A stretch of 64,000 bases of DNA from Eledone cirrhosa (lineage: Eukaryota). The stretch spans positions 34,286,001 to 34,350,000 of the forward strand of contig OZ024747.1 in assembly GCA_964016885.1 (NCBI GenBank). The letters are read 5' to 3'. Made by a program: the position numbers and the translations under genes. This document shows, piece by piece, positions 4,431-45,849 of the stretch; the stretch's first letter is position 1, and the number at the start of each line of letters is the position of its first letter. Below the pieces are notes generated by a model. It saw nothing but the letters and a program-made list of their open reading frames with translations, did no database searches and was not told the DNA's origin.

Positions 4431-4561
4431 AACATAGCCAACACAAGCATAGTTATCCCCATCACCTCCATCGTCGACGTCAAAATAATAATACTAATAA
4501 TAATAATACTTAACGTCATCATCATCATAATCATCATTGTCATTGCCATAGTAGTAATAAT

Positions 4562-5042
4562 TGTTTCTACGTTAGGCACAAGGCCAGCAATTAATAAAGT
4601 ACCTGTAATACACTGGTATTACCGGTACTTTATTTCATCGACCCCATAGTAGTAATAATGATGATGATAATTGTTTCTACTATTGGCACAAGGCCAGCAA
4701 TTATCACAGTGTATTACTGGTACTTTATTTTATTGACCCCGTAAGGATGAAAGGCAAAGTTAACCTTGGCGGGATTTGAACTCAGACCATAAAAGGGACG
4801 TAACTCTATGCTGCAAAGCATGGCGCCCGACCCTCTACCGATACTGCCAGATAACTATAATAATAATTGTTTCTACTTTAGGCACAAGGCCAGCAATTAC
4901 CCAGTGCATTACTGGTACTTTATTTTATCGACCCCGTAAGGATGAAAGGCAAAGTCAACCTCGGCGGGATTTGAACTCAGATCGTAAAGGGACGTAACTA
5001 TGCTGGAAAGCATGGCGTCCAACCCTCTACCGATACTGCCAA
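4562..5042 (-). mobile_element. Three tandem SINE copies (one 5'-truncated, two near full length)
   Basis: Repeated TTGTTTCTAC..GGCACAAGGCCAGCAATT at ~4561, 4671 and 4867. TSD CCATAGTAGTAATAAT at 4546-4561 and 4644-4659. Confidence 0.9.
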
Positions 5043-5044
5043 AT

Positions 5045-5566
5045 GATAATAATCATCATCATTGTGGTAGTAGTTATTGTCGTTGTAGACATCTTCATCA
5101 TCATCATCATCATATTAATCATCATCCCCATCATACAAATTATCATCGTCACCATCAACCCCATCATAATCATATCATCATCATCATCATCATCGTCGTC
5201 ATAAAAGTCACAATTTTCATCAATGTTGCTATCAGCATGGCTGCTGCAGTCACTATCCAAGTGTGATTGATTTAGCAGAGGACTGCTTCATTCAATTTAC
5301 TGCCATGCACGACATAGCGAAGCTTTTTCTACCTCAAGATGATTGCAATACATGAGAGAAAATTGATAACGGAGTATTTCGCTGAAGGCAACTGCACGAT
5401 CCTCCAACTTACTCATCGCTAGTTCATTAGCTCTTGTGTGATATCTACGGTATACAGACAGGTGGTGCACTTATTACCCAGGCTCTTCTTGTTCCTGCTG
5501 CTGTTGTTGCTGTTGTTGTTGTTGTTGTCGTCGTCGCCGTCGTCGTCGTCGTCTTCGTTGTCGTTG

Positions 5567-6334: not shown

Positions 6335-6382
<48 letters not shown>

Positions 6383-6434
6383 TAATTGTTTCTACTGTTG
6401 GCACAAGGCCAGCAATTACCCAATGCATTACTGG
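6383..6434 (-). mobile_element. SINE 3' fragment within the tail of Tx1 copy A
   Basis: TAATTGTTTCTACTGTTGGCACAAGGCCAGCAATTACCC directly after (AAT)n. Confidence 0.85.
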
Positions 6435-6699
6435 GTAACAATAATGCTTTCTTTATTAACCACAAGGGTTTACATAAAGTAGACATTAAGGAAAGTACAG
6501 GACAATGAAGGACGGTACAAATGGGCATTTCTGCATGTAAAAAAAAAGAAAAACAGAGGATGTAACAAAAAAATAACAATGAAAAATTACCCAATAGGGG
6601 GGAGACTTCCGAGGGACATTTGTGGAGAAAGCCCATTAAAAGGCGACAGTGACCCTGACCACCAGGCCAAGTGCCCTCTCCCAGTTTTCCACCTTTAAT

Positions 6700-9600
6700 T
6701 TACAGACACATACACAGAGTAGGCCCATTCACTCGGGCCATTCTTGTCTCTCCCACCCATCTTTCAACAAAATGCTGGGAAGACAGCACTTCCTTCTCTA
6801 CCATGATTTTCCTTTTCAAATGAAATTTGAAAAAGTTAATCAGGGCATCACCGAAGAGGCAAGTGCTCGTCTTCAGCCCTCTCAAAGGTGTCCACCATAC
6901 TATCTATTTCGCCATGGCCACCAGACAGATAAAAACTGCCTGCCCTTCCCGGCTAAAGGAAGAGGGCGGGACAATCCTCACGATGGATTCAGCTGATAGC
7001 TGCATCCGTCCTACACGTGACAGCAGGTGTTCGACATAAACCCACAAGTCAGCAATGCTCGGACACTGGACGAGTGCGTGCAGGACGGTTTCGTCGCCCT
7101 GCGCGCATCTCGGACATGCCCGGCTGACGACACCTCCATGCCTGTAGAGTTTATCACGAACTGGCAAAGCTCCTCGGTAGAACTGCCAGGCCAGGGAATT
7201 CTGGTAGTTGTCCATAGGCTCCGGCCCGAAAGTTCATCCGAAGAGATTGGCTAGTTGATGTTCGTCGACGCCTAGAGTTTCTCCAAGTACGTCGTCGTTC
7301 TTCCCCTCTACTAATCCTCCATAGAACGCCAAGGTGGAGTTTCCACCGATCACATTGCCCGATTGGTCGAGGGCTGTGAGCGCATGAAGACATTCCAGTC
7401 TCCAAGCACTCCCTCTCGATTTTCGGTTGACCCAGGACAGCATCCCCGTCAAGGAGACGAGCTGGGGAAAGACGCGTCTAGCAAACGGCGACCACACCTG
7501 ATCACGGTCGAGGAAGAGGTGGAGATGTTGTAGCCTGAGCGCGTGTCTGCGCATCATTAGCCACGGCATGCTCAGCCATCCACGTAGCGGGTGTTGACAC
7601 CAGATGGACAGCCTGACCATCAGACCGCGTCCCTTCCACAAAAAGCGAAAGAGCAAACGCTCCAGCGCAGACAGGCGACTCTTTGGATAAGTTACGACGG
7701 TCAGGCAGTAGTAGATGACAGACGCGTTAGCCACCTCCGCTCGACCTTTCAGTGATAGCTTCCTCTACACCCATTTCTGGGTGAGAGAAGCCACCCTGCT
7801 CGTCACCTTGTCCCAGTGTTTGTCCCTCTGGAGGTCCGGACAGATCCAGACCCCTAGCAATTTAACCGGTCCGTCCGTCCAGCGCCCGACGACGCAGTTG
7901 GACTGAATGGACCTGCCTCTCCAGATGCTGAGCTGCAGCTCCACCGACTTTTCCTGGATGATCATTTCTCCTGTCACCGCTTCGTATTCTCTTAGTGTAG
8001 TGACGATCGCCTCAATGTGTTTGGTGTTCGACACCACTACGGTGACATCGTCCGCATATGCTGACACGGATCTTCCATATCCTAGTTCATGCGGGACCAC
8101 CCTCAACGTCACCAGGTCGTGCAGTAATGGCTCGAGAGTCAATACGTACAAGAGCGACGAGAGGGGACATCTTTGGCGGACCGAGCGCATGATGTTGAAC
8201 GATTCCGAAAGGTGACCGTTCACTCTCACCACAGAGCAGTTGCCGCTGTGCATAGCAGCGATCCAGCCTCTGAAGACGGGCCCAAAGCCAGCCGCCTTCA
8301 GGACTGCCGCTAGGTAACAATGGTCGACCCTATCGAAAGCTCTCGACTGATCTAAATTGATCAAGGACCCACCGGTGCCAGGTTCCCTAGCAACCCTCTC
8401 TACGATGTATAGCATGAGGTGGAGGTTCTCGTGGATAGATCTGTCGGGAATGGCGTATGTCTGCGCCTCTCCCACCAGACCACCAACGACAAGCGCCAAC
8501 CTCTTTGCTAGCCCCTTGGCCAAAATCTTGAAATCTGTGTTTAGCAGAATTATGGGTCCAATTTTTCCTTGTTATCCCCCTTGTTCGGATCCTTCTCTCA
8601 GCAGCTCCACCGCTCCTCGCCTCACAGAGCTGGGAATTCTTCTGTTATGCTGCCAGTTGCAGTAGACGTCCGCCAAGAGGCCTCCGAACAAGTCTGGCAT
8701 CTGTACCTAAAGTTCATAGGGTAGACCATCCAAAGCAGGCGATTTACCCCTTGTGCAACCAGTTATTGCTTCCCGTACCTCAGCGGCTGTTATCGGTTTT
8801 CGCAACACTACGCCTCCGTGGCCGAGAGCCGCGGCTGTCCGTCGAGGTAGACACTAAAGTCCATCCCTCGATCCGACCCGCCGCTTCCCGGATCGAGTAT
8901 CATGCGCCCGTCGTGGTCCACCAAAGACCGGATCGTGGCTTTGTTGCCACGACGCGCCTCTGCCACTCGAACCCATTGAACGGCTTTCATCCCCTCGTGT
9001 CTGAGAGCACGCACCCTAGCTCTGACAACGCAGGCTTCGTGCTTTGCATTGAAGAATTGCTCACGGGCATATTTCGCCGCAAGTACGTCGGTCGCGATGC
9101 CTTTGTTAAGCGACTCGTCTAATTTTCTAACTAGTTCTCCTTCTGCTTTATTTTTCTCTATAGCTAAAACCTTACTAAACCTAATGCACTCTATTCTAAT
9201 CGCTCTTTTCAGAGCAAACCACCACTTGTTGTTGACGATGGCCCCCGTCAACGCTCGCTTAATTAGTTCACTATTCCCGTCTCTGTAGGCCTTGCGCGCT
9301 GATAAGGACGCGTTTAGCTTCCAGTAGCCGGGTCCTTGTCTATGAAGCCTATCTAAGTCAACCACACAGATCAAGAATTTGTGGTCCGTGTAGCTGACTA
9401 TCTTGAAATGTGGACATACCTATCTATTTCCCTACAAAATACTCTCTCTAGATATGATATGGATGACCCGATTGGGTTTGTCCAAGTCCACATTGGCACA
9501 TTCAGAAATCCAATCGGTACCTGTCAGACAGTTTAAACGTCTGAGCAGGTTGGTGAGGCGCGAGCACCCCCTCCCTATCCGCTAATCCCACACAGTCCCA

Positions 9601-10047
9601 GCGTTCATCTAAGATCCCGTTCCAGTCGCCCACTAACATTAAAGAGCGGGACGTTCCTAGAAAGGTCTCCAGACGCCGGAAGAAATAAGGCCGCCCTGCT
9701 CCTGTCGAGGCATAGACGGCCACTAGCCTGAAAGCTTGCCCGTCTCCGTTGGTCACGTCCAGCACCACCAACTTACCTTCTGGGTCCAGGAAGGTGGCCC
9801 GTATGGCGAGATCAAAACCTCTCCGAAAAAGAACAGCAACTCCTGCCCCCGATCCAGGACGGCTGGGAGATGCGTACACATCGTAACCGCCGAAGATCAT
9901 TGCGAAGGCCCGTGTTTCGGAGATTCTTGTCTCGCTGATGGCCACTACATCTATGTTTAGTGACCTGAGGTCGTTGAGCCGGTGGCCCTGACTCCATGAC
10001 GACACCAAGCCACGCGCATTTATGCTGCCTATTCTGAGTGAGGTCAT
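6700..10047 (-). pseudogene. Copy A ORF2: AP-endonuclease + reverse transcriptase + C-terminal Cys motif, frameshifted
   Basis: Fragments MTSLRIGSINARGL..SETR..GDWN (APE), GPGYWKLN, LDQSRAFDRVDH, RQRCPLS, AYADDVT (RT), CPRCAQGDETVLHALVQCP. Confidence 0.92.
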
Positions 10048-10179
10048 GTTGAAATGGAGTGGAAAAGGTGGTTTCTCCATCCCTTTACACTTGCTCGTCT
10101 GGTAAGGGACCGTTGAATCGTCCCTTCGGCTTGTCGTCGGCTCTTCTGTGATTATATCCGAATATACTCTCCGGCTGAT

Positions 10180-11491
10180 CTATCCTTCCTGCTTGCCGCC
10201 TGTCCTGTCGATGGTAGCAGTGGTGCCGGTTTCGGAAGGTGGGTTTTTTTTCTCCTTTCTCAGAGTCTTCTTATTGCCATAGGCCCTGAGGTGAGTCTTC
10301 GACCCACAACGAAAGCATTTCGGGCGCTTGCCCTCAACACTTATGGGCAGTTGAGTGCCGTTATCGAAGTCTATCACATCCGGGATAGCTTCGATGCATT
10401 CCTGGTTGGTTTGAATTAACATCTCAATGGAGGTGTCTACCCAATCTTCTCGTACTTTTTTCTGCACTTGCAGTACAGTTGTTTTGTCGTCGATTTCGAC
10501 GAAGACAGACGCGGCCATCCAGAAGGGGCCATCCCGGGGGGACGTGGGTCAGTTCGACCCTCACAATTTTTTGCCCGCAGTAGGAGGCCACCAAAAACAT
10601 TTCCTCGCTCCTTAGGATCACTAAGGAATGAACCTTTTCCTTCTGGGGGGTGGCAAAAAGCACGTCTACGGTGGCATATTTCTTGCCAGAGGTGATATGC
10701 GTTTTCCGCTGACACACAGACCCTTAGGCTTTTTGTATTTGAGCCACTGTGGCTCTTTCAACCCTACTTGATTTTGTGCTTACTGTACGGTACGTGACCG
10801 TACAGTGCTGTTGGGTTTCGATACATTTTTCGGCTGCCTTGCAGATTGATCGGTGTTCGGTTTTAGTCACCATCTTCTTTGCTTCCTGTAATTCCTCATT
10901 TGTTATAAGGATGGTTTCCAGGTTCTTTGCGATACCTGCAAACGAGATTGGTTTTTCTTTCTTGTTGTTGCTGTTGTTGTCGTCAGAGCTGCTGTTACTT
11001 TTGTTGTTGTTGCTTGTACTACGACCGCCGCCGTCGCTGTTGCTGTGGTTGTTGCTGCTGTTGCTGCTGCTGCTGCTATTATTGTTGCTGTTGGTGCCGC
11101 TGATGTTGTTGCGGCTGCTACTAGTGTTTTCCTTGTCACTATTGCTGCTGCTGGTGTTATTACGGCTGCTGCTTCTATTCTTCATGACGGCGGACGAATG
11201 AAATGGCTTGCCGTATTTACCACACACCTTTTTCGTCGTTGTCGTCGTCGTGGAGAAATGTTCCACGGTATGCACGTTCTCTTGGTGAAAGCTACCAGAA
11301 ACTATATTTTTCTTTTTCTTTAATGGTGTCGCTTGCGAAAGAGACGACACCACATTTAGAGAAGGGAGGGAGAGAGAGACATTTAGAGAAGGGAGGGAGT
11401 GTGATAATATTCTCTCTGGTGTAGTGACGATTGAGAAAGAAGAAGACGGAATGAGAGGGAGTGACTTGTGAAAATTCTTTTTTGTATCCAT
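10180..11491 (-). pseudogene. Copy A ORF1 (Ser/Asn-rich N-terminus, putative RRM-like core, gag-type zinc knuckle), frameshifted
   Basis: ORFs 10724-11527, 10424-10717 and 10180-10518. CFRCGSKTHLRAYG is a CX2CX4HX4C knuckle with the last Cys lost. Aligns by eye to copy C ORF1. Confidence 0.8.
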
Positions 11492-11729
11492 GTTTTTTTT
11501 TCGGTTTAAAATGAATATTGGGCACAAAATCCCAATAAGCGGTTATTTAACCAAGAAGGGCCAAATAACGGCCAGAAAGACCCCTCTCACGAGGAGGAGG
11601 GTGTTTTTATCTACAATTTGGATCAAGTTTTAAACAATTTACAATTGTTATAGCGGTTAAAAATTACTATACCTTACTGAGCCGAGCCTCCGTCAACCAT
11701 GGCATTGAATAATAATAATAATAATAATA

Positions 11730-11908
11730 ATTGTTTCTACATTGGGCACAAGGCCAGCAAATACCCTCTGCATTACTGGTACTTTAATTTATCGACCCCG
11801 TTAGGATGAAAGGCTAAGTTAACCTCGGCAAGATTTGAAATCAGAATGGTAAGGGCCGTAACTCTATGCGCCAAAGCATTGCGTCCGACCCTCTACCGAT
11901 ACTGCAAA
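11730..11908 (-). mobile_element. SINE between Tx1 copies A and B
   Basis: Matches the reference SINE; (AAT)n on both sides. Confidence 0.9.
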
Positions 11909-12129
11909 TTAATAATAATAATAATAATTTCATTTAATTGGCCACAAGGCCCGACATATGGGGGACAATACAAAAGACAGTGATAGTGGGCGTTTACATA
12001 TAGAACGTGTAAACAATAAACATAATAATAACAAAATAACAATAAAAATACAATTAACATTCTCCAATAGGGAGGATTAACTCAGGTACCCCACGAATCC
12101 AAAACGCGTGAAAGGCATCTTCTCGTCCT

Positions 12130-15100
12130 CAAATTCACCCACCTACAGCCGCATGTCAGAGTAGGCCCACTCACACGGGCCATTCTTGCCACATTCACCC
12201 ACCTTTCAGCAAATGTACTTGGGGGCAGCACTTCTCTCTCGGCCCTCACCTTCCTTTTCAGCTGAAACTTGAAAATGTTGATGAGGGATTGGCTGAAGAG
12301 AAAAGTATATGTCTTCAGTCCTTTCAACCTGGTCCACCATACAACCTCTTTTGCTACTGCCACCAGACATAGGAAAAATGTCCTGCCTTTCCTGGTCAAA
12401 AGAAGGCGGTGGGTCGATCTTCATTATTCGGCCGGTAGGCGGATGCGTTCTACACGCGAAAACAGCTGTTCGACATAACTTCACAAGTCAGTGATGCACG
12501 GACTCTGGACGATTGCTTGCAGAATGGTATCGTCGCTCTGCGCGCATCTCGGGTATGACCCTCTGACAGATTTCCGTGACTGTAGAGTTTATCTCGAACC
12601 GACAGTGCACCCAGGTAATTCTGCCAAGCGAGGGATTTTGGGAAATTATCCATCGACCCCGGCTCGAACAACCTCTGGAACAGGCTGACTAATTCGACTT
12701 CATCGACGCCCAGAGCCTCTCCGAGTGCGTCGTAGCACTTCCCACCACTAATCCTCTACATAACTCGTGAGTGGAAGATCCACTGATCGCATTTCCCGCC
12801 TGCTAGAGGGCAGTGAGAGCCAGGCAACATTCCAGATGTCAGTCACCCAATCTCGGTCTCTTCTTGACCCAGGATAGCAAATCTATCAAAGAGACGAGCT
12901 GCAGAAAGGCCCGACTGACAAACGGCGACCACACCTGTTCACCGTTTAGGCAGAATATCTGGAGATGCCGCAGCCTCAGCCCATGTCAGCGCATCATCAG
13001 CCATGGCATGCGCTGCCCTCCACATAGAGGGTGCTGGCAGCAGATGGACCGCCTCACTAACGAAACTTGTCCCGTCCACAAGAATGTAAAGGGGAGCAGT
13101 TCAAATTGGCGTGGCGCGAGGGGGAGTGGCGAAAGCCAGGCGGTAGTAGATGACGGATGCGATGTACGCGTTCGCTACCTGCCCGACCTTTCAGTGATAG
13201 CTCCTCGCAGCCCATTTCTGGGGTATACTGGCTACGTTGCCCATCACCTCGTTCCAATGTTTATCCACCTGACGGTCAGGCACGAACCAAACCCCGAGCA
13301 TCCTTACTGGTCCGTCTGTCCAGCACCAAACGCCGCTATTGGACGGCATATACTTGACTCTCCAGGTGTAAGCCCACCGATTTTTCCGTGTTAAGTTTTG
13401 CTCACGTCAACCTTTCATATTCCTACAATAAGTTGCCAATCACATCGATTTCCTAGGTGTCCGACACCATCACGGTGATATCGTCCGCATAAGCCGACAT
13501 AGCCTTTCCATGTCCCGGATCGAGCAGGATGCCCTGCAACAGCTCCAGTCTCTGAAGTAAAGGCTCGAGAGTCAATACGTACCGAAGGGAGGAGAGAGGG
13601 CACCCTTGATGATACGATCGGGTTATCTGAAACGGTTCCAAGAGGTGGCCATTAGCTTTGACCACCGAACAGATGCCGCTGCGCATTGCAACGATCCAAC
13701 TTCTGAAGACGGGGCCGAAGCCAGCTGCTTTGAGAACAGCCTCCATATACCGATGGTCGACCCTATCGAATGCTTTCGGTTGATCTACATTGATCAGAGC
13801 CCCACCGAAACCAGGTTTACACCCTACCCTCTCTATGCTGCATCGCATCAGGTGGAGGTTGTCGTGTATGGACCTGGTCGGGAATGCGCAATTTTGCGCC
13901 TCCCCAGCCAAATCGCCGACCACAAGCGCCAACCTCTTCGGTAACACCTTGGCCAACATTTTTAATTCTGTGTTGAGCAGAATTATGGACCTGAAATTGT
14001 CTAATGTCTCCCTCTTGTTCTCGTCTTTCCTTATCACCGTCCCTACGCACCGGCTCACAGAACAGGGGATATTCCCTTTCTACTGCCATGGCAGTAGAGC
14101 GCTTCGAGGCGATCGAAGAACAAGTCTGGCATATTTACGTAAAGCTTGTAGGGCAGACCATCCAAACCGGGTGACTTCCGCCTCATGCAGCCGACAAGGG
14201 CATCCTGAATCTCGGCTGAAGTAATCGGCCTTTCGCAGCGCTCAGCGTCCGCCGTCGAGAGTTGCGGCAAGCCATCGAGGTAGGGACTGAACTCCGCAAC
14301 CGTCCCCGACACGCCACTTCCGCCGAACAACCGAGCGAATTGTTGGCGAAAGGCCTCACACATCCGCTTGGAATCACTCAGATCGTGTCCGTCTCGGCCG
14401 TCAAAGACCGAATTGTGGTTTTATTACCACGCTGATCCTCTCCCACGCGGGCCCATCGAACAGCTTTGGTGCCCCCGTTTCTCAGAGCACGCGCCTTAGC
14501 TCTCACAATGCAACCTTCGTGTTTCCCAATGAAGAATGGTCTAATGCCATTCTCACCGCTAGAATGTCAGTTACAATGCCACTACCAATAACCTCGTCTA
14601 ACTTATCTACCAACTCCCCCTCTTTATATTTTTCTCTAACGCTACTTCTTTGCTAAACCCTATCGACATTACACTAGTATCTCTGTTGAAAGCCCCCCAC
14701 AATCTATTGTTGACGACTCCCTCTGTCAACCTTTTCTTAACTAAATTGTTGACCTTGTCCCTGTAAGCCATACGTGCTTCCAGTAACCAGGTCCTAACCT
14801 ACGCGTCTTATCTAGGTCGACCATACAGATAACAAACTTGTGATCTGAATAGGCGACGATTTTAAAACGTGGACATCTTACACTATTTCTGTCTATTTTC
14901 CTAATGAATATCCTGTCTATATACGAGCTAGATGACCCTATGCGGTTGGGCCTGGTCCAGACTGGCGCATTAGGGAAATCTAGTCGGTAATTGTCAGGCA
15001 GTTGGAACTGGCTGATCAGGTACTTGAAGCTTTTGCACCCCCCAATTCTATCGGATACTCCCACAGAGTCCCAGCGTACCTCTGAAATGCCGTTCCACTC

Positions 15101-15500
15101 CCCCGCTAACAGTAAAGGAGGAAACGTAACAAGAAAGGCTTCCAGGCGTTTAAAGAAGTGCGGCTGTCCTGCCCCAGTAGGAGCGTAGACGGCCACCAGT
15201 CTAAAGGTACCATCTTCGCTATCGTTCACGTCCAGGAACACGAAAATACCGTTCGGATCCCGGACGAAGGACCATACCTCGAGATCTAGGCCTTTTTTAA
15301 ACAGCACTGCCACTCTACCCCCCATTCCGGCCGACGAACAGATGCGAAGATCTGATAGTCGTCGAAAATGGGGGCTAGTGTGCGCGTGTTGGAAATCCTG
15401 GTCTCGCTGACGGAAATTACATCCATTTCTAGTGAACTGGGGTCGTTGAACAGGTGACTATGCTTCCAGGACAATCCCAGGCCCTGAACATTTGAACTTT
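12130..15500 (-). pseudogene. Copy B ORF2 (APE + RT), frameshifted
   Basis: SVSETRIS, VAVYAPTG, YSDHK, GPGYWK, KSPGLDGLPY, NFRSIILLNTELK, KAFDRVDH, QGCPLS, AYADDIT. Confidence 0.9.
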
Positions 15501-15516
15501 CGGCAATTTTTTTAGG

Positions 15517-16507
15517 CTAAAAGAGAGAGGAAAAGGTGTACTTACCTTCCCGGCTCTTGTGAAGGTCTGGTAATTCAACCCCCATAGTTGGTGGGTTTTT
15601 TGGGGGGAACTCCTTTAAAAGTCTTGTAGTGGGTTTTACGTTCGAGGTTCCCACGGCCCGAGGAAAGCTGTCTCGTATCTGTTTGTATAAATCGAGCCAC
15701 ATTTGCACCAGAAACAAATCTTCCGGCACGCGAAATGTGCTCAATTGAAAAATTTCCCCCTTTTTTGTATTTTTTACTTCGTGCTCCGAGGACCATCAGT
15801 TCCTTCTTGGCCATCCAGACAAGCACGAAGTTTTGTATGTTTTGTTGGTGTGATTTTATTTGTTTGCATGACTCTGGTGGCGGTGGTTTTGTTGGTGTTG
15901 TTTCGGTTGTGTCTGTGTTTGTCGTGAGTGCGGTGACTGCGGTTTCAGTGTTTGCTCGTGTATTTGTTCTTGCGTCTGTTTAAGTTGTTTGCGTTTGGTG
16001 GATTCTGGTGATGGTGATGGTGATGGGGGTTGTTGATGTTAGTGTTGTTGGGGGTTGTTGATGTTAGTGTTGTTGGGGAAAGGTTTGCATGGGTGTTGTC
16101 TGCATTTTTTATTGTGGGTACAGTATGACCTTGCTGATTTTGTAAGGTGTCATAGCATGTTCCATATGAGGGCTTCTGACTTAAACAGCACCGAAATGGT
16201 GCCGTATTTTCTGCCCCTCGCTATGTATTCGGTGTCATCCCCGATGCACTCAGCTCGACATCGACATCTGCTTTTGCAATTAAAGCTGCTCTCTAGGCTT
16301 CTGCTGAGATGCACCTGTAATGCACCGTTCTGCGATCCACTGCTTCAATAGCTTCTACCGGGACAGTTAAGTTGGCCTAGGTTTGCTCTTGCTTGATGAG
16401 CTTTCAGGCCTGGGCTAACATTTCATCTTTGTTAGAGAGGTCCATGCTGAAGCATGTCCTCACTTTAGCTGCTGCAGCAGCGAAAGTCTTCTTCTTGTTG
16501 TCGTTGG

Positions 16508-16540
<33 letters not shown>

Positions 16541-16898
16541 CGTTATTCATGTTGATGTTGTTGCTGGTATCACTGTTGGTTATATCTTTGGTGCAGCGGT
16601 TGTTGTTCTCTGTACAGTTGGTATTGTTGCTGTTGGTGTTGTTATTTGTTTTCATGTTAGTGGTGTTGATATTTTTGTTGCATTTGTTGTCATTTTTTCT
16701 GATGTCTGTATTTTGGTTGTCGCTGTTACTGTCATTTTTTTAAAAATTAGTGTTCTCAGTGGTGTTGTCTTTGTTCACGTTGTTTGTGGTGGTTGTTGTT
16801 GTATCAATTTCTGTAAATTTCGCCGTAGCGCTCCTCTCAACTTTTAAGCCATTGTCCAACAACAGCAGACATATTGCTGGGGGGCGTGGCTCAGCCAT
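15517..16898 (-). pseudogene. Copy B ORF1 remnant
   Basis: ATG follows an A-run; Asn/Thr-rich N-terminus and KKTFAAAAAK motif equivalent to the SFA motif of other copies. The central part appears deleted. Confidence 0.65.
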
Positions 16899-17090
16899 GT
16901 TTTTTTTTTCGATAATTTTTTAAAATATAAAAAGTTCAAATATTATACTTTCCCCTTCACAGGGCTTATATCCCTTACAGAACAATAAAAATGAAACAAT
17001 AAATAAGTTTTGACAGTTAAAAATAGAGACTTACGATAGCGAGCAAAAAGACGTCTGTTCAAACCAGTAAAAATAATAATAATAATAATG

Positions 17091-17124
<34 letters not shown>

Positions 17125-17374
17125 TTTCTTTATTAACCACAAGGGTTTACATAAAGTAGACATTAAGGACAGTGTAGGACAATACAGTACGGTAATAATG
17201 GGCATTTCTGCGTGTAAAAAAACAAAAACAGAGGCTGTAACGAAAAAATAACAATGAAAAATTCCCCAATAGGAGGGAGACTTCGGAGGGACATTTGTGG
17301 AGAAAGCCCAGTAAAAGGCCACAGTGACCCTGACCACCAAGGCAAGTGCCCTCTCCCAGTTTTCCACCTTTAAT

Positions 17375-20300
17375 TTACACATATATACTCAGAGTAGGCC
17401 CATTCACTCGGGCCATTCTTGCTTCTCTCACCCATCTTTCAACAAAATGCTGGGAAGTGAGCACTTCCCTCATTACTCTGATTTTCCTTTTCAAATGAAA
17501 TTTGAAAAAGTCAATCAGGGCATCACCGAAGAGGTAAGTGCTCGTCTTCAGCCCTTTCAAACGTGTCCACCATACTATCTCTTTCGCCATGGCCACCAGA
17601 CAGATAAAAACTGCCTGCCCTTCCCGGCTAAAGGAGGAGGGCGAGGCAATACTCACGATGGACTCAGATGATAGCCGGATCCGTCCTACACGCGACAGCA
17701 GGTGTTCGACATAAACCCACAAGTCAGCAATTTTCGGACACTGTAGAGTTTATCCCGAACTGGCAAAGCTCCCCGGTAGCACTGACAGGCCAGGGATTTC
17801 TGGAAGTTGTTCATAGGCCCCGGCCCGAAAGTCCTTCCGAAGAGATTGGCTAGTTGATTTTCGTCGACGCCTAGAGTTTCTCCAAGTACGTTGTCGCTCT
17901 TCCCCTCCACTAATCCTCTATAGGACGCCAAGGTGGAGTTTCCACCGATCACATTGCCCGATTGGTCGACGGCTGTGAGCGCCTGAAGACATTCCAGTCT
18001 CCAAGCGCTCCCTCTCGGTCTTCGCTTGACCCAGGACTGCAGCTCTGTCAAGGAGACGAGCTTGGGAAAGACGTGTCTAGCAAACGGCGACCACACCTGA
18101 TCGCCGTCGAGGAAGAGGTGGAGATGTCGTAGCCTGAGCGCGTGTCTGCGCATCATCAGCCAGGGCATGCCCAGCCTTCCACGTAGCGGGTGTTGATAGC
18201 AGGTGGACCGCCTGACCATCGGAGCGCGTCCTTTCCACAAAAAGCGAAAGAGCAACGCTCCAGCGCAGTCAAGCGGGGCTTAGGCGGTAGTAGATGACGG
18301 ACGCCATGTACGCGTTAGCCACCTCCGCTCGACCTCTCAGCCCATTTCTGTGTGAGAGAAGCCACCCTGCTGGTCACCTCGTCCCAGTTTTTGTCTGTCT
18401 GGAGGTCTGGACCGAACCAGACCCCTAGCAATTTAACCGGTCCGTCCGACCAGCGCTCGACGACGCTGTTGGACGGCATGGACCTGCCTATCCAGGTGCC
18501 GAGCTGCAGGCCCACTGACTTTTCCTGGTTAATCATTGCTCCTCTCACCGCTTCGTATTCTCTTAGTGTAGTGCCGATCGTCTCGATGTGTTTGGCGTTC
18601 GACACCATTACGGTGACATCGTCCGCATATGCTGACACGGATCATCCGCATCCTAGTTCGCGCGGGACCCCCTCAACGTCTCCAGTTTGTGCAGTAATGG
18701 CTCGAGAGTCAATACGTACAATGGGGACGAGAGGGGACATCCTTGGCGGACCGAGCGCATGCTGTTGAACTGTTCCGAAAGGTGACCGTTCACTCTCACT
18801 ACAGAGCAGATGTCGCTGTGCATGGCAGCGATCCAGCCTCTAAAGACGGGCCCAAAGCCAGCCGCCCTCAGAATTGCCGCTAAGTAACGATGGTCGACCC
18901 TATCGAAGGCTTTTGACTGATCTAAATTGATCAAAGACCCACCCGTGCCAGGTTCCCCAGCTACCCTCTCTACGATGTATCTCATGAGGTGGAGGTTGTC
19001 GTGGCTGGATCTGTCGGGAATGGCGCATTTCTGCGCCTCTCCCACCAGACCACCAACGACAAGCTCCAACCTCTTTGCTAGCACCTTGGCCAAAATCTTG
19101 AAATCTGTGTTTAGCAGAGTTATGGGCCTAACATTATCTATGTTGTCCCCCTTGTTCGGATCCTTTCTCAGCAGCGCCACTGCTCCTTGGCTCACAGAGC
19201 TGGGAATTCTCCCGTTCTGTTGCCAGTTGCAGTAGACGTCCGCCAAGAGGTCTCCGAACAAGTCTGGCATTTGTACGTAAAGTTCATAGGGCAGACCATC
19301 CAAAGCAGGCGATTTACCCCTTGTGCAGCCAGTTACTGCCTCCCGTACCTCAGCGGCTGTTATCGGCTTTTCGCAACACTCCGCCTCAGTGGCCGAGAGC
19401 CGCGGCAGTCCGTCGAGGTAGACACTAAAGTCCATCCCTCGATCCGGCCCGCCACTGCCCCCGAACAGTTGAGCGAAGTGTCGCTGAAAAGCTTCACATA
19501 TTTGCCCGGGATCGAGCAGCATGCGCCCGTCGTGGTCCACCAAAGACCGGATCGTGGCTTTGTTGCCACGACACGCCTCCACCACTCGGGTCCATTGAAC
19601 GGCTTTCGTCCCCTCGTGTCTGAGAGGACGCATCCTATCTCTGACACCACAGCCTTCGTGCTTTGCATTGAAGAATTGGTCAAGGGCCAATTTCGCCGCA
19701 AGTACGTCGGTCGCGATGCCTTTGCAAAGCGCCTCGTCTAATTTTGTAACTAATTCTCCTTCTGCTCAATTTTTCTCTATTGCTAAAGCCTTACTAAACC
19801 TAATGGACTCTATTCTAATTGCTCTTTTCAGAGCAAACCACCACTTGTTGTTGACGATGGCCCCCGTCAACGCCCGCTTAACTAGTTCGCTAATCCGGTC
19901 TCTGTAGGCCTTGCGCGCTGGTAAGGACGCGTTTAGCTTCCAGTAGCCGGGTCCTCGTCTATGAAGCCTATCTAATTCAAGCACACAGATCACGAATTTG
20001 TGGTCCGTGTAGCTGGCTATCTCGAATTGTGGACAGCCTATGCTAAACCTATCTATTTCCCTACGAAATACTCTATCTAGATATGATCTGGATGACCCTA
20101 TGCGATTTCTCCAAGTCCACATTGGTACATTCGGGAAATCCAATCGGTACCTGTCAGACAGTTCAAAACGCCTGAGGAGGTTGGTGAGACTCTTGCACCC
20201 TCCTTGCCTATCCACTAATCCCACACAATCCCAGCGTGCATCTAAGATCCCGTTCCAGTCGCCCACTAACACTAAAGAGCGGTACGTTCCAAGAAAGGTC

Positions 20301-20680
20301 TCCAGACACCGGAAGAAATCAGACCGCCCTGCTCCTGTCGGGGCATAGACGGCCACTAACCTGAAAGCTTGCCCGTCTCCGCTGGTCACGTCCAGCACCA
20401 CCAACTTACCTTCTGGGTCCAGGAATATGGCCCGTATGGCAAGATCCAAACCTCTCCGAAAAAGTACTGCAAATCCTCCCCCCGATCTCGGACGGCTGGG
20501 AGATGCGTACACATCGTAGCCGCCGAAGATCGGTGCGAAGGCCCGTGCTTCGGAGATTCTGGTCTCGCTGATGGCCACTATATCTATGTTTAGTGACCTG
20601 AGGTCGTTGAGCAGATGGCCCTGCTTCCATGACGACCCCAAGCCACGCTCATTTATGCTGCCTATTCTGAGTGAGGTCAT
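17375..20680 (-). pseudogene. Copy C ORF2 (APE + RT), a few stops and frameshifts
   Basis: ORFs 19766-20680 (APE: SETR, GDWN, SYLDR, YTDHK), 18653-19690 (RT: VRPITLLNTDFKILAK, QGCPLSS), 18315-18638 (AYADDVT), 17686-18255 and 17375-17722. Confidence 0.93.
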
Positions 20681-20714
20681 GTTGAAAAGGAGTGGAAAAT
20701 ATTGGAAAGACCAC

Positions 20715-22704
20715 TTACCTTACTTCTCGTAGAGGAAGGACGGTTTTTCTATCCTTTTCAATGATTGTGGCCTCCTCAGGAAGGATGTCCTTATAAATCC
20801 TCCTGGAGAGTGCTTGTCGGAAGTCTCCGATGTCTTTGGGGAATTTTTGTTTTAGTGTAATGTACGTTTTCTGTGTGATGCGAGTGATTTGTATGTGTGT
20901 AGGTGGAGTGAATTTTTGAGTTGTTGTGTAGTCTTTTTCTGTGATGCTGGTGTTGTGTTGGATGTAGTGTAATAATTGGTTGTTGTTCAACTTTAATGCT
21001 GTGTAGTGTGTATCGTTTTTGTTGTTTTGTTTTGTTTGCGTTTGTTGTGGGTTTGTTTCTGTTTCGCATTTTGGTGACTTTTGTGGTGTAGGTGATGGTG
21101 GTGTTGGGGTTAATGATGGTGATGGTGTTGGTGTTTGGGGTGATGGGGTTGGTGATGCTGGTGTGGATGGTGGCATATCTGTCCTAACTTTTTTGTTTGT
21201 TAATTTATTTGTTTCCCTCTGTATTTTGTTTTTGGAGGGAGAAGGAAGGGAATTTTTTCTTTTTTGGTTTTTTTTTTTTCTCCTGATACCGTTTCGCACT
21301 CCTCGTCGTCGCAATCTGTCTCCAGTTGTGATAGGCCGGGGAATGGAAAATCCTCCACAGGCGTTAGTTTTGGTTGTGGCGTGGTGGATGGTGTAGGCCC
21401 TGGTGCTAGTTCTGAAGCGTTTGGTGGTGGTGGTGTTGGTTTTCCTGGTGGTGGTGATGTTGGTTTTGCTACTGTTGCTGGGGCTGTTGCTGTTATAGTT
21501 GCTTCTGTTGTTGCTGCTACAGTTGTTGCTGCCATCTCTGCTACTGGTGGTGTTGATGGTTGAGTCACTGGGGTGGTAGGAGAGGTGGCCTCAACCTTTT
21601 AGCCTGAGGGCAGAAAGCCCTTAGGTGGGTTCCTTCACCACAAACGACACACCTAGGCCCTCTGCCCTCGACAATTACGGTGAGGTGGCTGCCGTCAGTG
21701 AGGTCTATTACCTCTGGGATCTCCTCAATGCTTTTTTGGTCCGCTTGGATCAGGAGCTCCATCCCAGATCCGGACCAGTACTCCTGCTTTTCTTTTGCTA
21801 TTGCTATTATCTTTGTGTTGCCTTCGATGCCGGCGAGGACGGCCGCTATTAGCCAGGGAATTTCGATGGCCGTTGGAACGTGGGTCACCCTGATCGTTAC
21901 GAGACTTTGGCCACAATAGCTTGGGACGAGTGTGAAGTCGTCACTTCTTAATGGGGCCATGGAGTGTTCTCTAGCCTCCTCTGGTATTTCAAAGAACACA
22001 TCCACGGTTCCATACTTCTGCCCACGTCTGATGTGGGTTTTTCTTGCCCACACATGTCCCAAAGCTTTTCGGATTTGGGACTCGGATGTCCGTTCCACTC
22101 GGCGCGATTTTACATTTATTGTTCGATACGACACGGTGCATAGGCGCTGATGCTCCATTTTATTAGGTGTGTGTGTGGGCGGGGGGGGGGGGGTGACCCT
22201 GTACCCATCTTTCTTTACCATTTTTTGGCATTTTCTAATTACTCCTGAGATACCGTAAATGCTTGGCACTGTTTTGCTACTCTGGCAAAACTCAGGGTGT
22301 TTTTTTTTAATTTCATTGTTGTTGTTGTTGATATCGTTATTTTTGTTATTACTAATTTTAGTTTCAGTTGTAGTGGTGGTGACGTCAGTGGAGTTCGGTT
22401 TGGAAGAGTTCATTTTGGTTGAAACTATTTTGAAATCACGAGTCGATTTATTTTTTCCTTTTGTTTCTGTTGTCGCGGTGGTGGTGGGGGTGGGGGTTGT
22501 CGCGGTGGTGGTGGCGGTTTTAACACCTGCAGTCATTGGTAATGGCGGGAAATGAATGTCTGCCTGAGACAAATTTAAAATATTGCTAGTGCTTAAATTG
22601 TTTGTGTTGGCAAACGTAGTATCATTTACAATCGTGGTGTCTATGTGAGGTGTTAATTTGTGAGGAAGGCTTTCAGCTGCTTGGTGCAGAGGTGAATTAG
22701 CCAT
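20715..22704 (-). pseudogene. Copy C ORF1 (low-complexity N-terminus, core, CCHC knuckle, Pro/Thr linker, C-terminal domain)
   Basis: ORFs 21565-22704, 21200-21568 and 20715-21314; intact knuckle CVVCGEGTHLRAFC. Confidence 0.85.
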
Positions 22705-22914
22705 TTTTTTTTCAAAGATATTTTTTGATAATCATAAAAGTTTAAATTTTGGGCACAAGGCCCCAATCTTTTTGTGTGTCCTTTTCGGAAAACAATGTAT
22801 GTGCGCTTATATATAGTTAACAATAAACATTTTCCATAAATGGCAATTTTTAACAAACGGAAATAACAAACTTTTGCGGAGCTCACGATGATACGATTTA
22901 CTACGTAGGTCGCC

Positions 22915-22946
<32 letters not shown>

Positions 22947-22947
<1 letters not shown>

Positions 22948-24330
22948 CTTGGATCACCAAAAGCATAGAGATCGTCAATGTGGTAGATAACATCAGACAG
23001 TTGTGAAGAAAAAGTATGAAGTCCTGGAAAACAGAGTTAACATCAGCTGGAGAATCCGTGGGAGGCGTGAAAATCAAGAGAGGTATCTTCCAGGGAGATA
23101 GTCTGTCCCCTCTGTTGTTTGTCCTTGCCCTGATGCCCCTGACCATTATACTGCGAAAAGTGAGAGTAGGATACAAGTTAGGAAAGGTAGAGCTTACCAT
23201 CAACCACCTCCTCTTCATGGACGAACTTAAGCTCTTCGGGAAGAGTGAGAAGGAGTTGGATGTGCTTGTTGACACTGTCCGTATTTTCAGCAATGATATA
23301 TGTATGCAATTCGGTATTAGTAAGTGTGGAGTCCTTGTGATGAAAAGGGGTAAATTGAGCAGAAGCAACGGAATCCATGTACCAACAGGTAAGATGATAA
23401 AGGAAATTGACACTGAAGAAGGATACAAGTATTTGGGTATTGTGGAGGCTGATGACATAAAGAACAAAAAAAATGAAGGAATAGATATACATTCGGAGGA
23501 AGGAAGGAATACATTCGGAGAGTAAGGAGCGTATTAAAGTCACATCTGAACAGTAGGAATGCCATAAGTGCAGTAAATTCCCGAGCTGTATCTATTATTA
23601 GGTACAGTGCGGGAATTCTGAGATGGAATGTTGCTGAACAAAAAGAAATGGATAGGAAGACTAGGAAGCTATTGACTATCTACAACATGTTCCACAAGAG
23701 GAGTGATGTCGATAGACTCTACTTAAGGAGATCTGAAGGTGGAAGAGGTCTTATCAGCATAGAGGACTGTGTTCAGATAGAGAAAAACAACCTACACAAA
23801 TACGTGACCGATAGTAAGGAGCCAATGCTCAGAGCTGTACTGAAGGAGAGGACAATAGACCAGGGGATGTCCAAGGAGGAAATAACAACGAGGAGAAAGA
23901 GCAACCTTCAGGAAAAATCCTTTCATATTACCTTCTTTGAGAAAACGGAATGGTTTTCGACAAGGAAAAAAGATCGTTCCTGATTGTGGATGATGCCTGC
24001 CCATTCGACACGAGAGTGCAAGAGAAGGAGAGGGAGAAAATTAACCGATACCATGACTTAAAGTGGGAGGTAAAAAGGATTTGGAACTGCCACGAAGTCA
24101 AAGAGGTCCCGATTGTCAAAGGCGCCCTAGTTACTATCTCAAAAAGTATCCAGGGATGGTCAAATAAAATTGGCCCCGCCCCGCTTTTTGGAACACATCA
24201 AAATGCATGCTTGCTGGGAACAGCAAGAACTCTCCGATACGTCCTGAATATTTGAGGCTGCAGGTAGTGGCTTGATATTAATTTCAACAAACTTTCCAGT
24301 TAACTAACATCAATGACTGAGACTCAAAGA
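22947..24330 (+). mobile_element. R4/Dong-clade LINE, 5'-truncated (partial RT + restriction-like endonuclease)
   Basis: RGIFQGDSLSPLLF, HLLFMDELKL, YKYLG, DRLYLRRSEGGRGL, LIVDDACPFD..EKEREKINRY..VPIVKGAL. 3' end CTGAGACTCAAAGA followed by (ATA)n. Confidence 0.88.
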
Positions 24331-24340
24331 ATAATAATAA

Positions 24341-24641
24341 TAATTGTTTCTACTTTAGGCACAAGGCCAGCAATTACCCAATAATAATAATAATAATAAT
24401 AATTGTTTCTACGTTAGGCACAAGGCCAGCAATAACCAGTGCATTACTGGTACTTTATTTTATCGACCCCGTAAGGATGAAAGGCAAAGTCAACCTCGGC
24501 GGGATAATGATAATACTAATTGTTTCTACTTTTGGCACAAGGCCAGCAATTAGCCAGTACATTACTGGTACTTTATTTTATCGACCCCGTAAGGATGAAA
24601 GGCAAAGTTAACCTCGGCGGGATTTGAACTCAGATCGTAAG
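24341..24641 (-). mobile_element. Three 5'-truncated SINE copies separated by (AAT)n
   Basis: Fragments at ~24341-24380, 24401-24503 and 24518-24641. Confidence 0.9.
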
Positions 24642-25343
24642 GAATAATAATAATAATAATAATAGTGAGTGAATTAAAATATGCAGTTGCGATTATCAGT
24701 TTTCGAAATCATGCGGTACTGAGACTTACGAGACCACTAATCATGTGATAACTCGATAGATGCCGATATATAGAGTGGGTATAGAGATATGTAAAATCCC
24801 GAACGCGGCACCAAGCGTTTTCGAAACCGTTGACGAAGTGGTCGGAATTTTACATCTTTCTCTCTCTCTGTTTGTACGTGCCAGTGCAAAATCTGGACAT
24901 GATCAGTTTTTTAGAAGAACATATATTCCTAAAGTAATAATTTTTAGTGGGTGAACTGTTAGATTCGTTTATAGTTAATCGATAATTTTTTTATAGGAAT
25001 CCCATTCGATAAATATCAACCTATAAATGATTCTTCACTATGGACTAGTGAGAATCTATTGGATTAAATCAGGGAGGCTGAAGCCGTATCAGAACCACAC
25101 GACACTTCTTCACCAATCTTTAGACGAGATCGGTCCAACCGAGTCTATTCTAGAATACAATGTTTGGCTCATCCATTTATATGGAATATGTAACCACAGA
25201 GTGTCTGGGGGCAATTCCTTTATCTCAAAATATATCTATCGTAAATGTTTGTACATGACCGTAACGAAATTAAGGTCCTGCTTCAAAACTCTATTAATAT
25301 AAATGAAAAAATTATGAATTGAATCCTTATTGCATAAAAAATG

Positions 25344-31020: not shown

Positions 31021-32117
31021 TTAATATATTTTTTTTGTTTCAGTTGTTTCTGTGGTGATGGTGGTAGCAGTGGTGTTGGATGTACTCTTCGACATTGTGG
31101 TGGTGGAGATGGTGGCTTTAACAGCTGCAGACATTGGTAAGGGCGGCAAAATCACATCTGCACGTGACAAACTTAAGTAAACGCCACGGCTGCTGCTGCC
31201 ACGGTTATAGAAAAAAATTTCGGTCTGTGCAAAACCAAATGTGTCTTTTGCTAAAGCGGCGAACAATACGATTGAGGTAAGCCAGGAAGAACTGAATAAA
31301 ATCAAGCGAATGGTAAAAAAATATGGTTACAGGGTCAGCCTAAATCAAATACCATGGAGCATCGGCGCCTATGTACTGTATCTTCGCACAATAAATGTGG
31401 AGTGGGCATCCGAGTTCAAAAAGCAATTGGACATGTGTGGGTTCAAAAATACCACATCACAATTGGACAGAGATATGGAATTGTGGACGTGTTCTTTGAA
31501 ACCCCACAGTAAGCCAGAGAGCACACCATGGCCCCATTAAAAAGTGACGAGTTCACAGTCGTCCCTAGCTATTGTGGTCAGAGGCTGGTAAGAATCAGAA
31601 TGACCCATTTCCGCCGGCCATTGAAATTCCCTGGCTGATGTCTGCCGTATCTGTCTGATGGCTATGGCGAAAGAGAGCGTGTGGTAGACGCGCTTGAAAG
31701 GGCTGAGGACGAGCACTCACCTCTTCGGCAATGCCCTGATTAACTTTTTCAAATCTCATTTGAAAAGGAAAATCAGGGTGGAGAGGAAAGTGCTCTCTTC
31801 CCAGCATTTTATTGAAAGATGGGTGAGAGAGGTAAGCATGACCTGAGTGAGTGGGCCTGCTGTGAGTATGCGCCTGTAAATTGAAGGTGAAAATCTGGGA
31901 GAGGGTACTTGCCCTGGTTTTCAGGATCACCGTGGCTTTTCTAATGGGCTTTCTACACGAGCGTCCCTCTGAAGTCTCCCCCCTATTGCGGAATTTTCCT
32001 CTGTTTCTTTTTTTTTTATTTTCTTTGTATACTCAGAGATGTCCATTTGTACCGTCCCGTACAGTCCTGTCCTTAATGTTATACCTTATGTCAACCCTCG
32101 TGGTTAATAAAGAATAG
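31021..32117 (+). mobile_element. Rearranged Tx1 copy D: inverted ORF1 5' piece, ORF1 core, then ORF2 C-terminus and 3'UTR
   Basis: 31021-31190 (minus) resembles copy C ORF1 (ADVILPPLPMSA). 31215-31650 (plus) has SFAKAA..MVKKYGYRV..IEIPWL. 31650-32117 matches the 3' end of copies A/C and is followed by an ATT tail. Confidence 0.85.
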
Positions 32118-32140
32118 ATTATTATTATCATTATTATTGA

Positions 32141-38777: not shown

Positions 38778-38893
38778 AGTTTTAATATAGATGAGATTCT
38801 ACAGGACTAGAACTGTTTCATTCTTTAGAAATCATCCTGATGATTTCTAAAGAATGAAACAGTTCTTGTCCTGTAGAATCTCATCTATATTAA

Positions 38894-38897
<4 letters not shown>
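38778..38897. repeat. Near-perfect 120-bp palindrome
   Basis: Arms 38778-38836 and 38839-38897, one mismatch, 2-nt spacer. Confidence 0.92.
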
Positions 38898-44720: not shown

Positions 44721-45849
44721 ATCCCTAGAAATAGATTCTTCTAAAAACTTTTAGAAATAAAAATGAATATCGACCTATTTTTTACCGTTAAGGCTTATTA
44801 GTTGTACATAAAGCCTTGGAGTATTTCAAGGAATAAGTGAATCCCGACATCTGATCTAGATATCAAAACAATTGTAACAAAAATAATCGGAGCTACGCAC
44901 ATTTTATTTTGTTAAGATAGGGGTATGAATTTTTCCATGTTGTAAACATAAACTATGCAATGCTTTTGTCGTTATCCGAAACATTTGGTAAGTAAAAAAG
45001 AAAACAAATAACAATATTTATTGATTTTTGTATGAACCAAATCCATGCTGTAGACCACGCAATCGTTGAGAACTAATTAATTTAGAAGTTTCCTTGTCAA
45101 CATTTCAAACATATTTGTAAACCAACGCTGGCTATGACTCAGAGCCACGAAAGTTACATTATAGTTCACATAATCTTGTTATCTAAAGATTAAATGTATT
45201 TTTTTACAGAAAAATCGTTATTGTACAGAGATGCTATGTACTCTACTCACTTAGTCTGCCAGCTATACTACAGAAATATCCCCCAGCAAATTATGTTCTC
45301 TCTCAGAAGTGTGCACTTCATAATCTAAATCTAATTATATAAAATACAGACTACTGCGGAGAAAGTGTGTTGAACCACAGCTTCCATTGCAAATCGAGTA
45401 CGTCATTTCACCAGATTTCTCCGTACAATGAATCTGCTTAAGTGTTAGGCGCTAATGAAAGTGCCAAACAATTGCCCTTTAATGATGATTCGGATTTAGA
45501 CACAATGGCTAAATGCGGTATCATCATTAAAGAAGAGTCGGGGGGGGGGGGGGATTAATGCAAATAATAACAACTGTACTAATAATGTCAACAATAATAA
45601 TAAGAACAACAATTTACACAAATGGTGGGACCAATAGTCGAACCTGATATATATAGATATAAATTTGATTGATAATCACACGTATTTCTTTGATCTTCTA
45701 AATATAAATCATGATATGACATGATCCTCGCTAATCTAAAACTGTACAACAAAAATTACAACAATTATCATCTCTTATGAATCGTCCAAGAATATTTAAC
45801 ATTTACAATATCAGTAAGCTTAATTTTGTATCCTATATCTTCAGATGAA

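What the first reader, a model, noticed from the sequence alone, without database searches (positions are those of the whole stretch)
6335..24665. 18-kb self-regenerating insertion pad: Tx1 LINEs, a Dong LINE and SINEs stacked in one (AAT)n microsatellite
Seen: the order is (AAT)n-SINE-Tx1A-(AAT)n-SINE-(AAT)n-Tx1B-(AAT)n-Tx1C-(AAT)n-Dong-(AAT)n-SINE x3-(AAT)n, with essentially no unique DNA between elements. All three Tx1 copies keep their 5' ends, are different from each other (so not a tandem duplication) and have (AAT)n at both ends. Established: Tx1-clade elements are often target-specific, including for microsatellites. Inference: these families target (ATT)n and end in (ATT)n, so each insertion creates a new target and builds polar head-to-tail arrays. 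I cannot tell from here whether this specificity is already catalogued.
Basis: partly seen in the sequence, partly recalled or inferred. Interest (0 to 1): 0.75.

Follow-up and report, generated by a model that had tools for sequence, protein, structure and literature searches.

The report
ATT-seeking jumping genes stacking with partners
In this likely octopod genome, three decayed jumping genes of one kind, an unrelated one facing the other way and five short hitch-hiker elements sit end to end in one ATT repeat, likely because each insertion copies its ATT landing site and so leaves a new one; this is a known way of stacking, here with a target not found in print for this group.

Summary
The 18.3-kb stack is real. 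It holds three 5'-complete but broken L1/Tx1-group LINEs (A, B, C; minus strand), one truncated R4/Dong-type LINE (plus strand) and five SINE pieces, joined only by (AAT)n.

Targeting holds genome-wide: 83 of 85 other 5'-complete copies sit behind at least four ATT units, against 0.02% of random positions. 52 of 85 follow another Tx1, SINE or Dong. Truncated copies and SINEs show 10-20 bp duplications starting ATTAT. The SINE shares a 3' hairpin with the LINEs (loop CUUGU, stems changed on both sides), so it likely borrows their enzymes.

Corrections: Dong faces the other way and targets (AAT)n; growth is not polar; A and C share ORF2; four of five SINEs are fragments. Tx1 membership is favoured, not proven. 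Microsatellite-targeting Tx1 (Kibi, Koshi) and TAA-targeting Dong are published; an ATT target for Tx1 was not found in nine searches, but Repbase was not searchable. This scan has noted the same phenomenon eight times on other pieces of this genome. New variant, moderate interest.

The parts
6335..6382 (.). (AAT)16, left end of the host microsatellite
6383..6436 (-). SINE 3' fragment, about 50 bp
6437..6445 (.). minimal spacer AAC-AAT-AAT (tail of element A)
6446..11707 (-). LINE A, L1/Tx1 group: 5'-complete; ORF1 with one CCHC-type knuckle in relatives; APE-RT ORF2; broken by frameshifts and an internal deletion; 5' module A on an ORF2 shared with C
11708..11731 (.). (AAT)8
11732..11910 (-). 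near full-length tRNA-type SINE (A-box-like TGGCAGTATCGG, B-box-like GTTCAAATC in relatives), 3' CUUGU hairpin, ATT tail
11911..11928 (.). (AAT)6
11929..17065 (-). LINE B, L1/Tx1 group: 5'-complete, most diverged, many frameshifts
17066..17122 (.). interrupted (AAT)~18
17123..22914 (-). LINE C, L1/Tx1 group: 5'-complete, least diverged (96-97% to closest relatives), APE frame open, RT frameshifted
22915..22947 (.). (AAT)11 shared by the 5' end of C and the truncated 5' end of Dong
22948..24329 (+). R4/Dong-type LINE fragment: end of RT plus end of a restriction-like endonuclease, about 410 bp internal deletion, (AAT)n tail
24330..24344 (.). (AAT)5, tail-to-tail junction of Dong and SINE
24345..24379 (-). 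SINE 3' fragment, 35 bp
24380..24403 (.). (AAT)8
24404..24505 (-). SINE 3' fragment, about 100 bp
24506..24519 (.). degenerate AAT spacer
24520..24642 (-). SINE 3' fragment, about 120 bp
24643..24663 (.). (AAT)7, right end of the host microsatellite

Best explanation
The stretch is one ATT/AAT microsatellite that holds nine retrotransposon copies of different families and ages, likely inserted one after another because the L1/Tx1-group LINEs, the SINE that likely borrows their enzymes and an inverted Dong element all prefer this repeat and duplicate it on insertion. Shown: 5' junctions in (ATT)n, (ATT)n tails, 10-20 bp duplications beginning ATTAT, opposite strand use by Dong, and a shared 3' hairpin. 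Inferred: the APE endonuclease nicks the AAT strand, probably at a TpA step. The freed AAT end pairs with the (AUU)n RNA tail and primes reverse transcription. A second nick 10-20 bp on duplicates the target, leaving (ATT)n on both sides, which slippage then resizes. Dong's restriction-like endonuclease would do the mirror reaction on the other strand. Any spacer can take the next copy, so growth goes both ways.
For: 5'-complete copies: C 29 of 29, A 29 of 29 and B 25 of 27 located (2 of 29 B loci had no anchor) follow four or more ATT units; 81 of 85 end exactly ATT before the element's first base; background 0.021%. The C query held only one base of the repeat. Tracts vary from 4 to 27 units in C and A, with different upstream DNA. 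11 of 15 truncated C-family copies also have an ATT hexamer at the junction (read by eye; background 1.7%), so the repeat there is not part of the element's 5' end. Non-repeat duplications flank truncated copies: L170 12 bp, L193 17 bp, L202 18-19 bp. An interruption is mirrored on both sides of L266. SINE: 15 of 31 unselected copies have 10-20 bp non-repeat duplications, against 1.05 in mispaired controls; 22 of 31 3' flanks start ATTATT. Hairpin stems around CUUGU are AACC/GGUU in A and C (79 of 86), GGCC/GGCC in B (23 of 37) and UGGC/GCCW in the SINE (86 of 112). Upstream neighbours of 85 full-length copies: 31 Tx1 tails, 10 SINE tails, 11 Dong. Dong: 61 of 61 tails AAT, 28 tail-to-tail with a Tx1 or SINE; 13 of 19 truncated 5' junctions in AAT.
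Against: No empty site and no enzyme assay. Only the 30 best-scoring of 667-2,822 candidates per query were fetched, so the samples favour well-preserved copies. Older truncated B-type copies show ATT at the 5' junction in only about 9 of 23 cases (by eye). One truncated copy has (CTT)n at its 5' junction (L173). L267 has a short 3' tail and a 5' flank that do not form a duplication. The SINE uses short ATTAT sites (0 of 13 unselected heads behind four ATT units), so the nuclease preference alone does not explain why full-length LINEs are so strict. The SINE hairpin was not the minimum-energy fold in a 61-nt context. Local duplication also builds some arrays (L070/L071 share 2.9 kb at 97.6%). 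Array contiguity was not read-verified.
Confidence: 0.85

Rival explanations
1. The 5' (ATT)n of full-length copies is partly carried by the RNA: transcription starts inside the donor's upstream tract, and the cDNA's (AAT)k end anneals to the target to make the 5' joint. Strictness would then come from both ends of the RNA, not only from the nuclease.
For: Fixed phase ATT|G in 81 of 85 full-length junctions across three unrelated 5' ends, while SINEs and some truncated copies accept short sites.
Against: No full-length copy was found with a unique duplication followed by an extra ATT leader among the copies of the 60 long loci whose 3' end was located (about a third had no 3' end called). L266 mirrors a target interruption at both ends. 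This rival refines the main model rather than replacing it.
Confidence: 0.3
2. Insertion needs only a short ATTAT site, and the excess of full-length LINEs in long tracts and stacks reflects survival: copies in microsatellites or other repeats are purged less.
For: The SINE and some truncated copies use short sites in unique DNA.
Against: Selection would not place 83 of 85 copies directly against a motif found at 0.02% of positions, nor fix the phase. 33 of 85 copies have no recognised element upstream.
Confidence: 0.08
3. The array arose by tandem duplication, gene conversion or assembly collapse of repeat copies.
For: Some arrays elsewhere hold near-identical neighbours (L070/L071; L154). 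Contiguity was not verified by reads.
Against: A, B and C have three different 5' modules. Each is closer to dispersed relatives than to its neighbours: A versus C is 88% over ORF2, versus 93-96% to relatives. The junction types recur genome-wide.
Confidence: 0.05

Closest known systems
Kibi (TC)n, Koshi (TTC)n and crocodilian (TTCC)n/(TTTC)n Tx1-clade LINEs (PMC4494074 passages and section 15; PMC3812793 passage)
   Same: APE-RT LINEs of the L1/Tx1 group whose copies sit in one microsatellite type.
   Different: The target here is (ATT)n. The lineage is octopod-like and only 29% identical in ORF2 to Xenopus Tx1. It shares the repeat with an inverted Dong and a SINE.
Dong (Bombyx mori), DongAg, DongBg, Darwinula Dong; R4 clade (PMC3812793, PMC7998251 passages)
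   Same: RT followed by a CCHC knuckle and a PD-(D/E)xK-like nuclease; (TAA)n target, reported in molluscs too.
   Different: Nothing essential; here it shares tracts with Tx1-group LINEs in opposite orientation.
SINEU mobilised by Tx1-Mar in crocodilians (PMC4494074 passages)
   Same: A SINE inferred to use Tx1 enzymes from a shared target preference; tandem copies sandwich a target duplication.
   Different: SINEU has snRNA heads and poly(A) tails, and no LINE sharing the SINEU-1 3' end was found. Here the SINE has a tRNA-type head and shares a 3' hairpin and an ATT tail with the LINEs.
Tandem TE arrays by repeated insertion at one target (PMC5932611 passages); tail-repeat/target concordance in RTE elements (PMC6007223 passages)
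   Same: The target is preserved at tandem junctions; the 3' microsatellite tail matches the start of the duplication.
   Different: Those cases are Drosophila TEs and RTE-clade elements; this one is a multi-family, two-strand stack in a trinucleotide repeat.

Membership tests
L1/Tx1 group LINE | ORF2 with N-terminal APE endonuclease, RT and C-terminal zinc-binding motif | tested here: met
   Pfam Exo_endo_phos and RVT_1 above cut-off; zf-RVT below cut-off at E 5e-4; best solved match is human L1 ORF2
L1/Tx1 group LINE | separate upstream ORF1 | tested here: met
   ORF1 with a CCHC-type knuckle in relatives of A, B and C; cores 29-52% identical to each other; no Pfam family
Tx1 clade | RT groups with Tx1 to the exclusion of L1 | tested here: inconclusive
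   260 bits to Xenopus Tx1 (P0267) versus about 148 to human L1; Tx1 versus L1 without endonuclease 178. The quick tree had no L1 outgroup and puts the family on its own branch with unnamed 41-42% relatives
Tx1 clade | target-sequence preference | tested here: met
   83 of 85 full-length copies behind four or more ATT units
Kibi/Koshi families | (TC)n or (TTC)n target | tested here: not met
   target is (ATT)n; 1 of 15 truncated copies had (CTT)n
Kibi/Koshi families | RT phylogeny with Kibi/Koshi | not testable with these tools
   no Repbase sequences available
R4/Dong | RT plus C-terminal CCHC and restriction-like endonuclease in one ORF | tested here: met
   1071-aa open frame in relative L100; RT piece matches only R2 structures
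R4/Dong | (TAA)n target and tail | tested here: met
   61 of 61 tails; 13 of 19 truncated 5' junctions
R4/Dong | RT groups with R4/Dong rather than other RLE clades | not tested
   no reference sequences fetched
tRNA-derived SINE | Pol III A and B boxes in the head | tested here: inconclusive
   box-like motifs seen by eye against recalled consensus; no Rfam tRNA match
SINE partnered to the Tx1-group LINE | shared 3' tail structure and insertion signature | tested here: met
   mobilisation itself untested
Named octopus SINEs (OK, OR1, OR2) or Deu/Nin superfamily | sequence match to the published consensus | not testable with these tools
   no consensus available; resemblance of the core to Deu/Nin is recalled only

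The most novel reading that the evidence does not exclude
An octopod lineage runs a two-enzyme microsatellite ecosystem. A Tx1-group LINE recognises its RNA by a small CUUGU hairpin and reads ATT with both its nuclease and its RNA ends. It powers a highly abundant tRNA-type SINE, and it shares the same repeat with an unrelated restriction-like-nuclease element on the other strand. Full-length LINEs insert only in long tracts in fixed phase while the SINE, on the same machinery, takes any ATTAT, so the RNA's 5' end rather than the nuclease sets the strict specificity.
Probability: 0.3. Interest if true: 0.6.

Novelty: new variant of a known kind. Interest (0 to 1): 0.4.

Why it matters
It adds (ATT)n to the targets of L1/Tx1-group LINEs and names a likely partner LINE for an abundant octopod SINE, with a hairpin whose stems change on both sides between families. 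The contrast between strict full-length LINEs and relaxed SINEs on likely the same enzyme is a natural test of how much nuclease and RNA each contribute to target choice. These families are not rare: Tx1-group 5.3%, SINE 1.5% and Dong 0.6% of 200 kb sampled at round positions. Such stacks may explain some reported TE hotspots in octopus and make AAT microsatellite markers unreliable (inference). All copies in this window are dead, and the principle of stacking at a duplicated target is known.

Tried and rejected
Read support: contigs and RAD reads of four runs were too short and too multi-copy to test the array; no habitat or organism was inferred from them. Targets of the 41-42% sister lineage: the metagenome scan with P0012 found no locus. 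The protein atlas gave no answer. Rfam found nothing at gathering score in 4000-26000. The careful tree did not finish; the quick tree lacks an L1 outgroup. Polar, telomere-like growth was rejected: closest-relative identity in RT is A 93%, B 89%, C 96%, with Dong at 95%. Copying of the neighbour's 5' half, proposed in earlier notes, is not seen here: A, B and C carry three different 5' modules, and in the 60 long loci the downstream 5' end was usually of another family (for example L228, L229, L256, L257, L260, L262, read by eye). An element-borne ATT leader after a unique duplication was sought and not found. The supplement of PMC4494074, which lists Tx1 targets, could not be read and may bear on novelty.
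Full report
Setting. The window is G000:C7:34286001-34350000 of a 3.0-Gb genome. The closest named ORF2 relative is an Argonauta hians protein at 67%, so the host is likely an octopod (inference).

Observation. Pfam finds APE and RT pieces on the minus strand for A and C, RT for B, and RT on the plus strand at 23007-23525. Against natural relatives all three LINEs are 5'-complete but frameshifted or deleted. A and C share ORF2 and the 3' end (88-92% in the window; 93-95% between relatives) but have different 5' UTRs and ORF1 cores about 52% identical; B is about 70% identical to both. Four of the five SINEs are 3' fragments. A's tail is only three units, one imperfect.

Is the 5' repeat general? 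I searched the genome with the 5' ends of C, B and A and fetched the 30 best of 2,822, 1,839 and 1,490 candidates. Leaving out the self hits: C 29 of 29, A 29 of 29 and B 25 of 27 lie behind four or more ATT units (two B loci had no anchor and were dropped). 81 of 85 end exactly in ATT before the element's first base, nearly always a G. Background is 0.021% of 388,000 positions in 20 stretches taken at round coordinates. The C query held one base of the repeat; the A and B queries held 3-4. Upstream of the tract lie 31 Tx1 tails, 10 SINE tails, 11 Dong pieces (10 inverted) and 33 other sequences. Sixty 10-kb loci show the same mixed stacks on many chromosomes.

Target or element? Searches with 3' ends gave truncated copies. 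Of 15 C-family copies truncated within 1.7 kb, 11 have an ATT hexamer at the junction (by eye; background 1.7%). Older B-type copies are weaker, about 9 of 23. Non-repeat duplications flank L170 (12 bp), L193 (17 bp) and L202 (18-19 bp), each starting at the ATT-like register. L266 mirrors an interrupted repeat at both ends. So the repeat is mostly target DNA duplicated on insertion. Against a simple picture: L173 has (CTT)n upstream, and L267's flanks do not match.

SINE. Among 31 unselected copies with intact 3' ends, 15 have 10-20 bp non-repeat duplications (mispaired control mean 1.05, maximum 4), and 22 flanks begin ATTATT. Across all loci the count is 48 of 157 (control 4.95). The last 30 bases align with the LINE 3' ends. 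A search anchored on the loop and the tail, not the stem, found AACC-CUUGU-GGUU in A and C (79 of 86), GGCC-CUUGU-GGCC in B (23 of 37) and UGGC-CUUGU-GCCW in the SINE (86 of 112). The stem changes on both sides between families, but these are few independent events, and the stem appears in the minimum-energy fold only for the LINE ends. A shared tail and insertion signature are the usual grounds for a SINE-LINE pair (PMC4824008, PMC4494074, passages). The SINE is less strict: 0 of 13 unselected heads follow four ATT units, and 10 of 13 have ATTAT nearby. Why full-length LINEs are stricter is unexplained; see the first rival.

Dong. A relative gives a 1071-aa frame with RT, a CCHC knuckle and a PD-(D/E)xK-like nuclease, and the RT piece matches only R2 structures. 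All 61 tails are AAT-type and 28 meet a Tx1 or SINE tail to tail (loci were partly chosen around LINEs). 13 of 19 truncated 5' junctions, the window's own included, lie in AAT. (TAA)n targeting by Dong is published, molluscs included (PMC3812793, PMC7998251, passages).

History. Identity to the closest fetched relative in RT is A 93%, B 89% and C 96%; Dong is 95%, the middle SINE 90% and the right SINE fragments 97%. The oldest LINE is in the middle, so growth was two-sided. Neighbours are not each other's closest relatives, which argues against local duplication here, though it occurs elsewhere (L070/L071).

Classification. ORF2 scores 260 bits to Xenopus Tx1 (P0267) against about 148 to human L1; Tx1 itself scores 178 to the endonuclease-less L1 construct. 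A quick tree puts the family with the Argonauta protein and three unnamed proteins on a strongly supported branch apart from the vertebrate Tx1 set, without an L1 outgroup. L1/Tx1 group is shown; Tx1 clade is favoured.

Literature. Nine searches found no report of an ATT-targeting Tx1 element or of a Tx1-partnered SINE in cephalopods. Seen as passages: PMC4494074 (plus section 15; supplement unreadable), PMC3812793, PMC7998251, PMC6007223, PMC5932611, PMC4758252 and PMC4824008. Seen as parts 1-2 of 3 of the text: PMC13282606, which lists recently active L1-Tx1 and Dong-R4 families and TE hotspots in Octopus vulgaris with no target analysis in those parts. Repbase, Dfam and most subscription papers were not searchable, so prior cataloguing is possible.

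Earlier notes. Eight unreviewed notes on other pieces of this genome describe the same ATT stacking; none lies near this window, and a word search for the hairpin found none. They are not independent support.

Verdict. Real; mechanism likely as described (0.85); a new target variant of a known kind, already seen repeatedly in this scan. The hairpin-sharing SINE and the strict-versus-relaxed contrast are what this window adds. Interest 0.4.

Noticed in passing
window 32380-33600: An older Dong copy (79-90% to the array's) interrupted by a full-length SINE at 32736-32916 with an 18-bp duplication starting ATTATT: the SINE uses short ATT sites inside other elements.
   Followed up: partly
window 31348-32138: Plus-strand Tx1-group remnant with an ORF1 piece joined directly to the 3' end; its ATT tail runs into a short sequence like an inverted Dong 3' end.
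   Followed up: no
window 45849-46449: Minus-strand Tx1-group 3' fragment, about 77% identical, with a decayed AAT tract.
   Followed up: no
window 38778-38897: Near-perfect 120-bp palindrome (96.7%) next to a (TA)n tract; possibly a small fold-back element.
   Followed up: no
window 6446-11707 and 17123-22914: Families A and C share ORF2 (93-95% between relatives) under different 5' UTR/ORF1 modules: a 5' module swap.
   Followed up: partly
L211, L213, L223, L227, L241, L167, just after the ATT tail: The same unknown sequence follows the tail in six loci; likely the inverted end of another AAT-tailed family.
   Followed up: no
L070/L071 (G000:C6:45.09-45.10 Mb); L154: Neighbouring copies share flank and junction (2.9 kb at 97.6%), pointing to local duplication in some arrays.
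   Followed up: partly
L173: Truncated C-family copy with a long (CTT)n tract at its 5' junction and an AAT/ATT tract at its 3' end.
   Followed up: no
window 4548-5063: A smaller stack of three SINE pieces with short ATT spacers, 1.3 kb left of the array.
   Followed up: no
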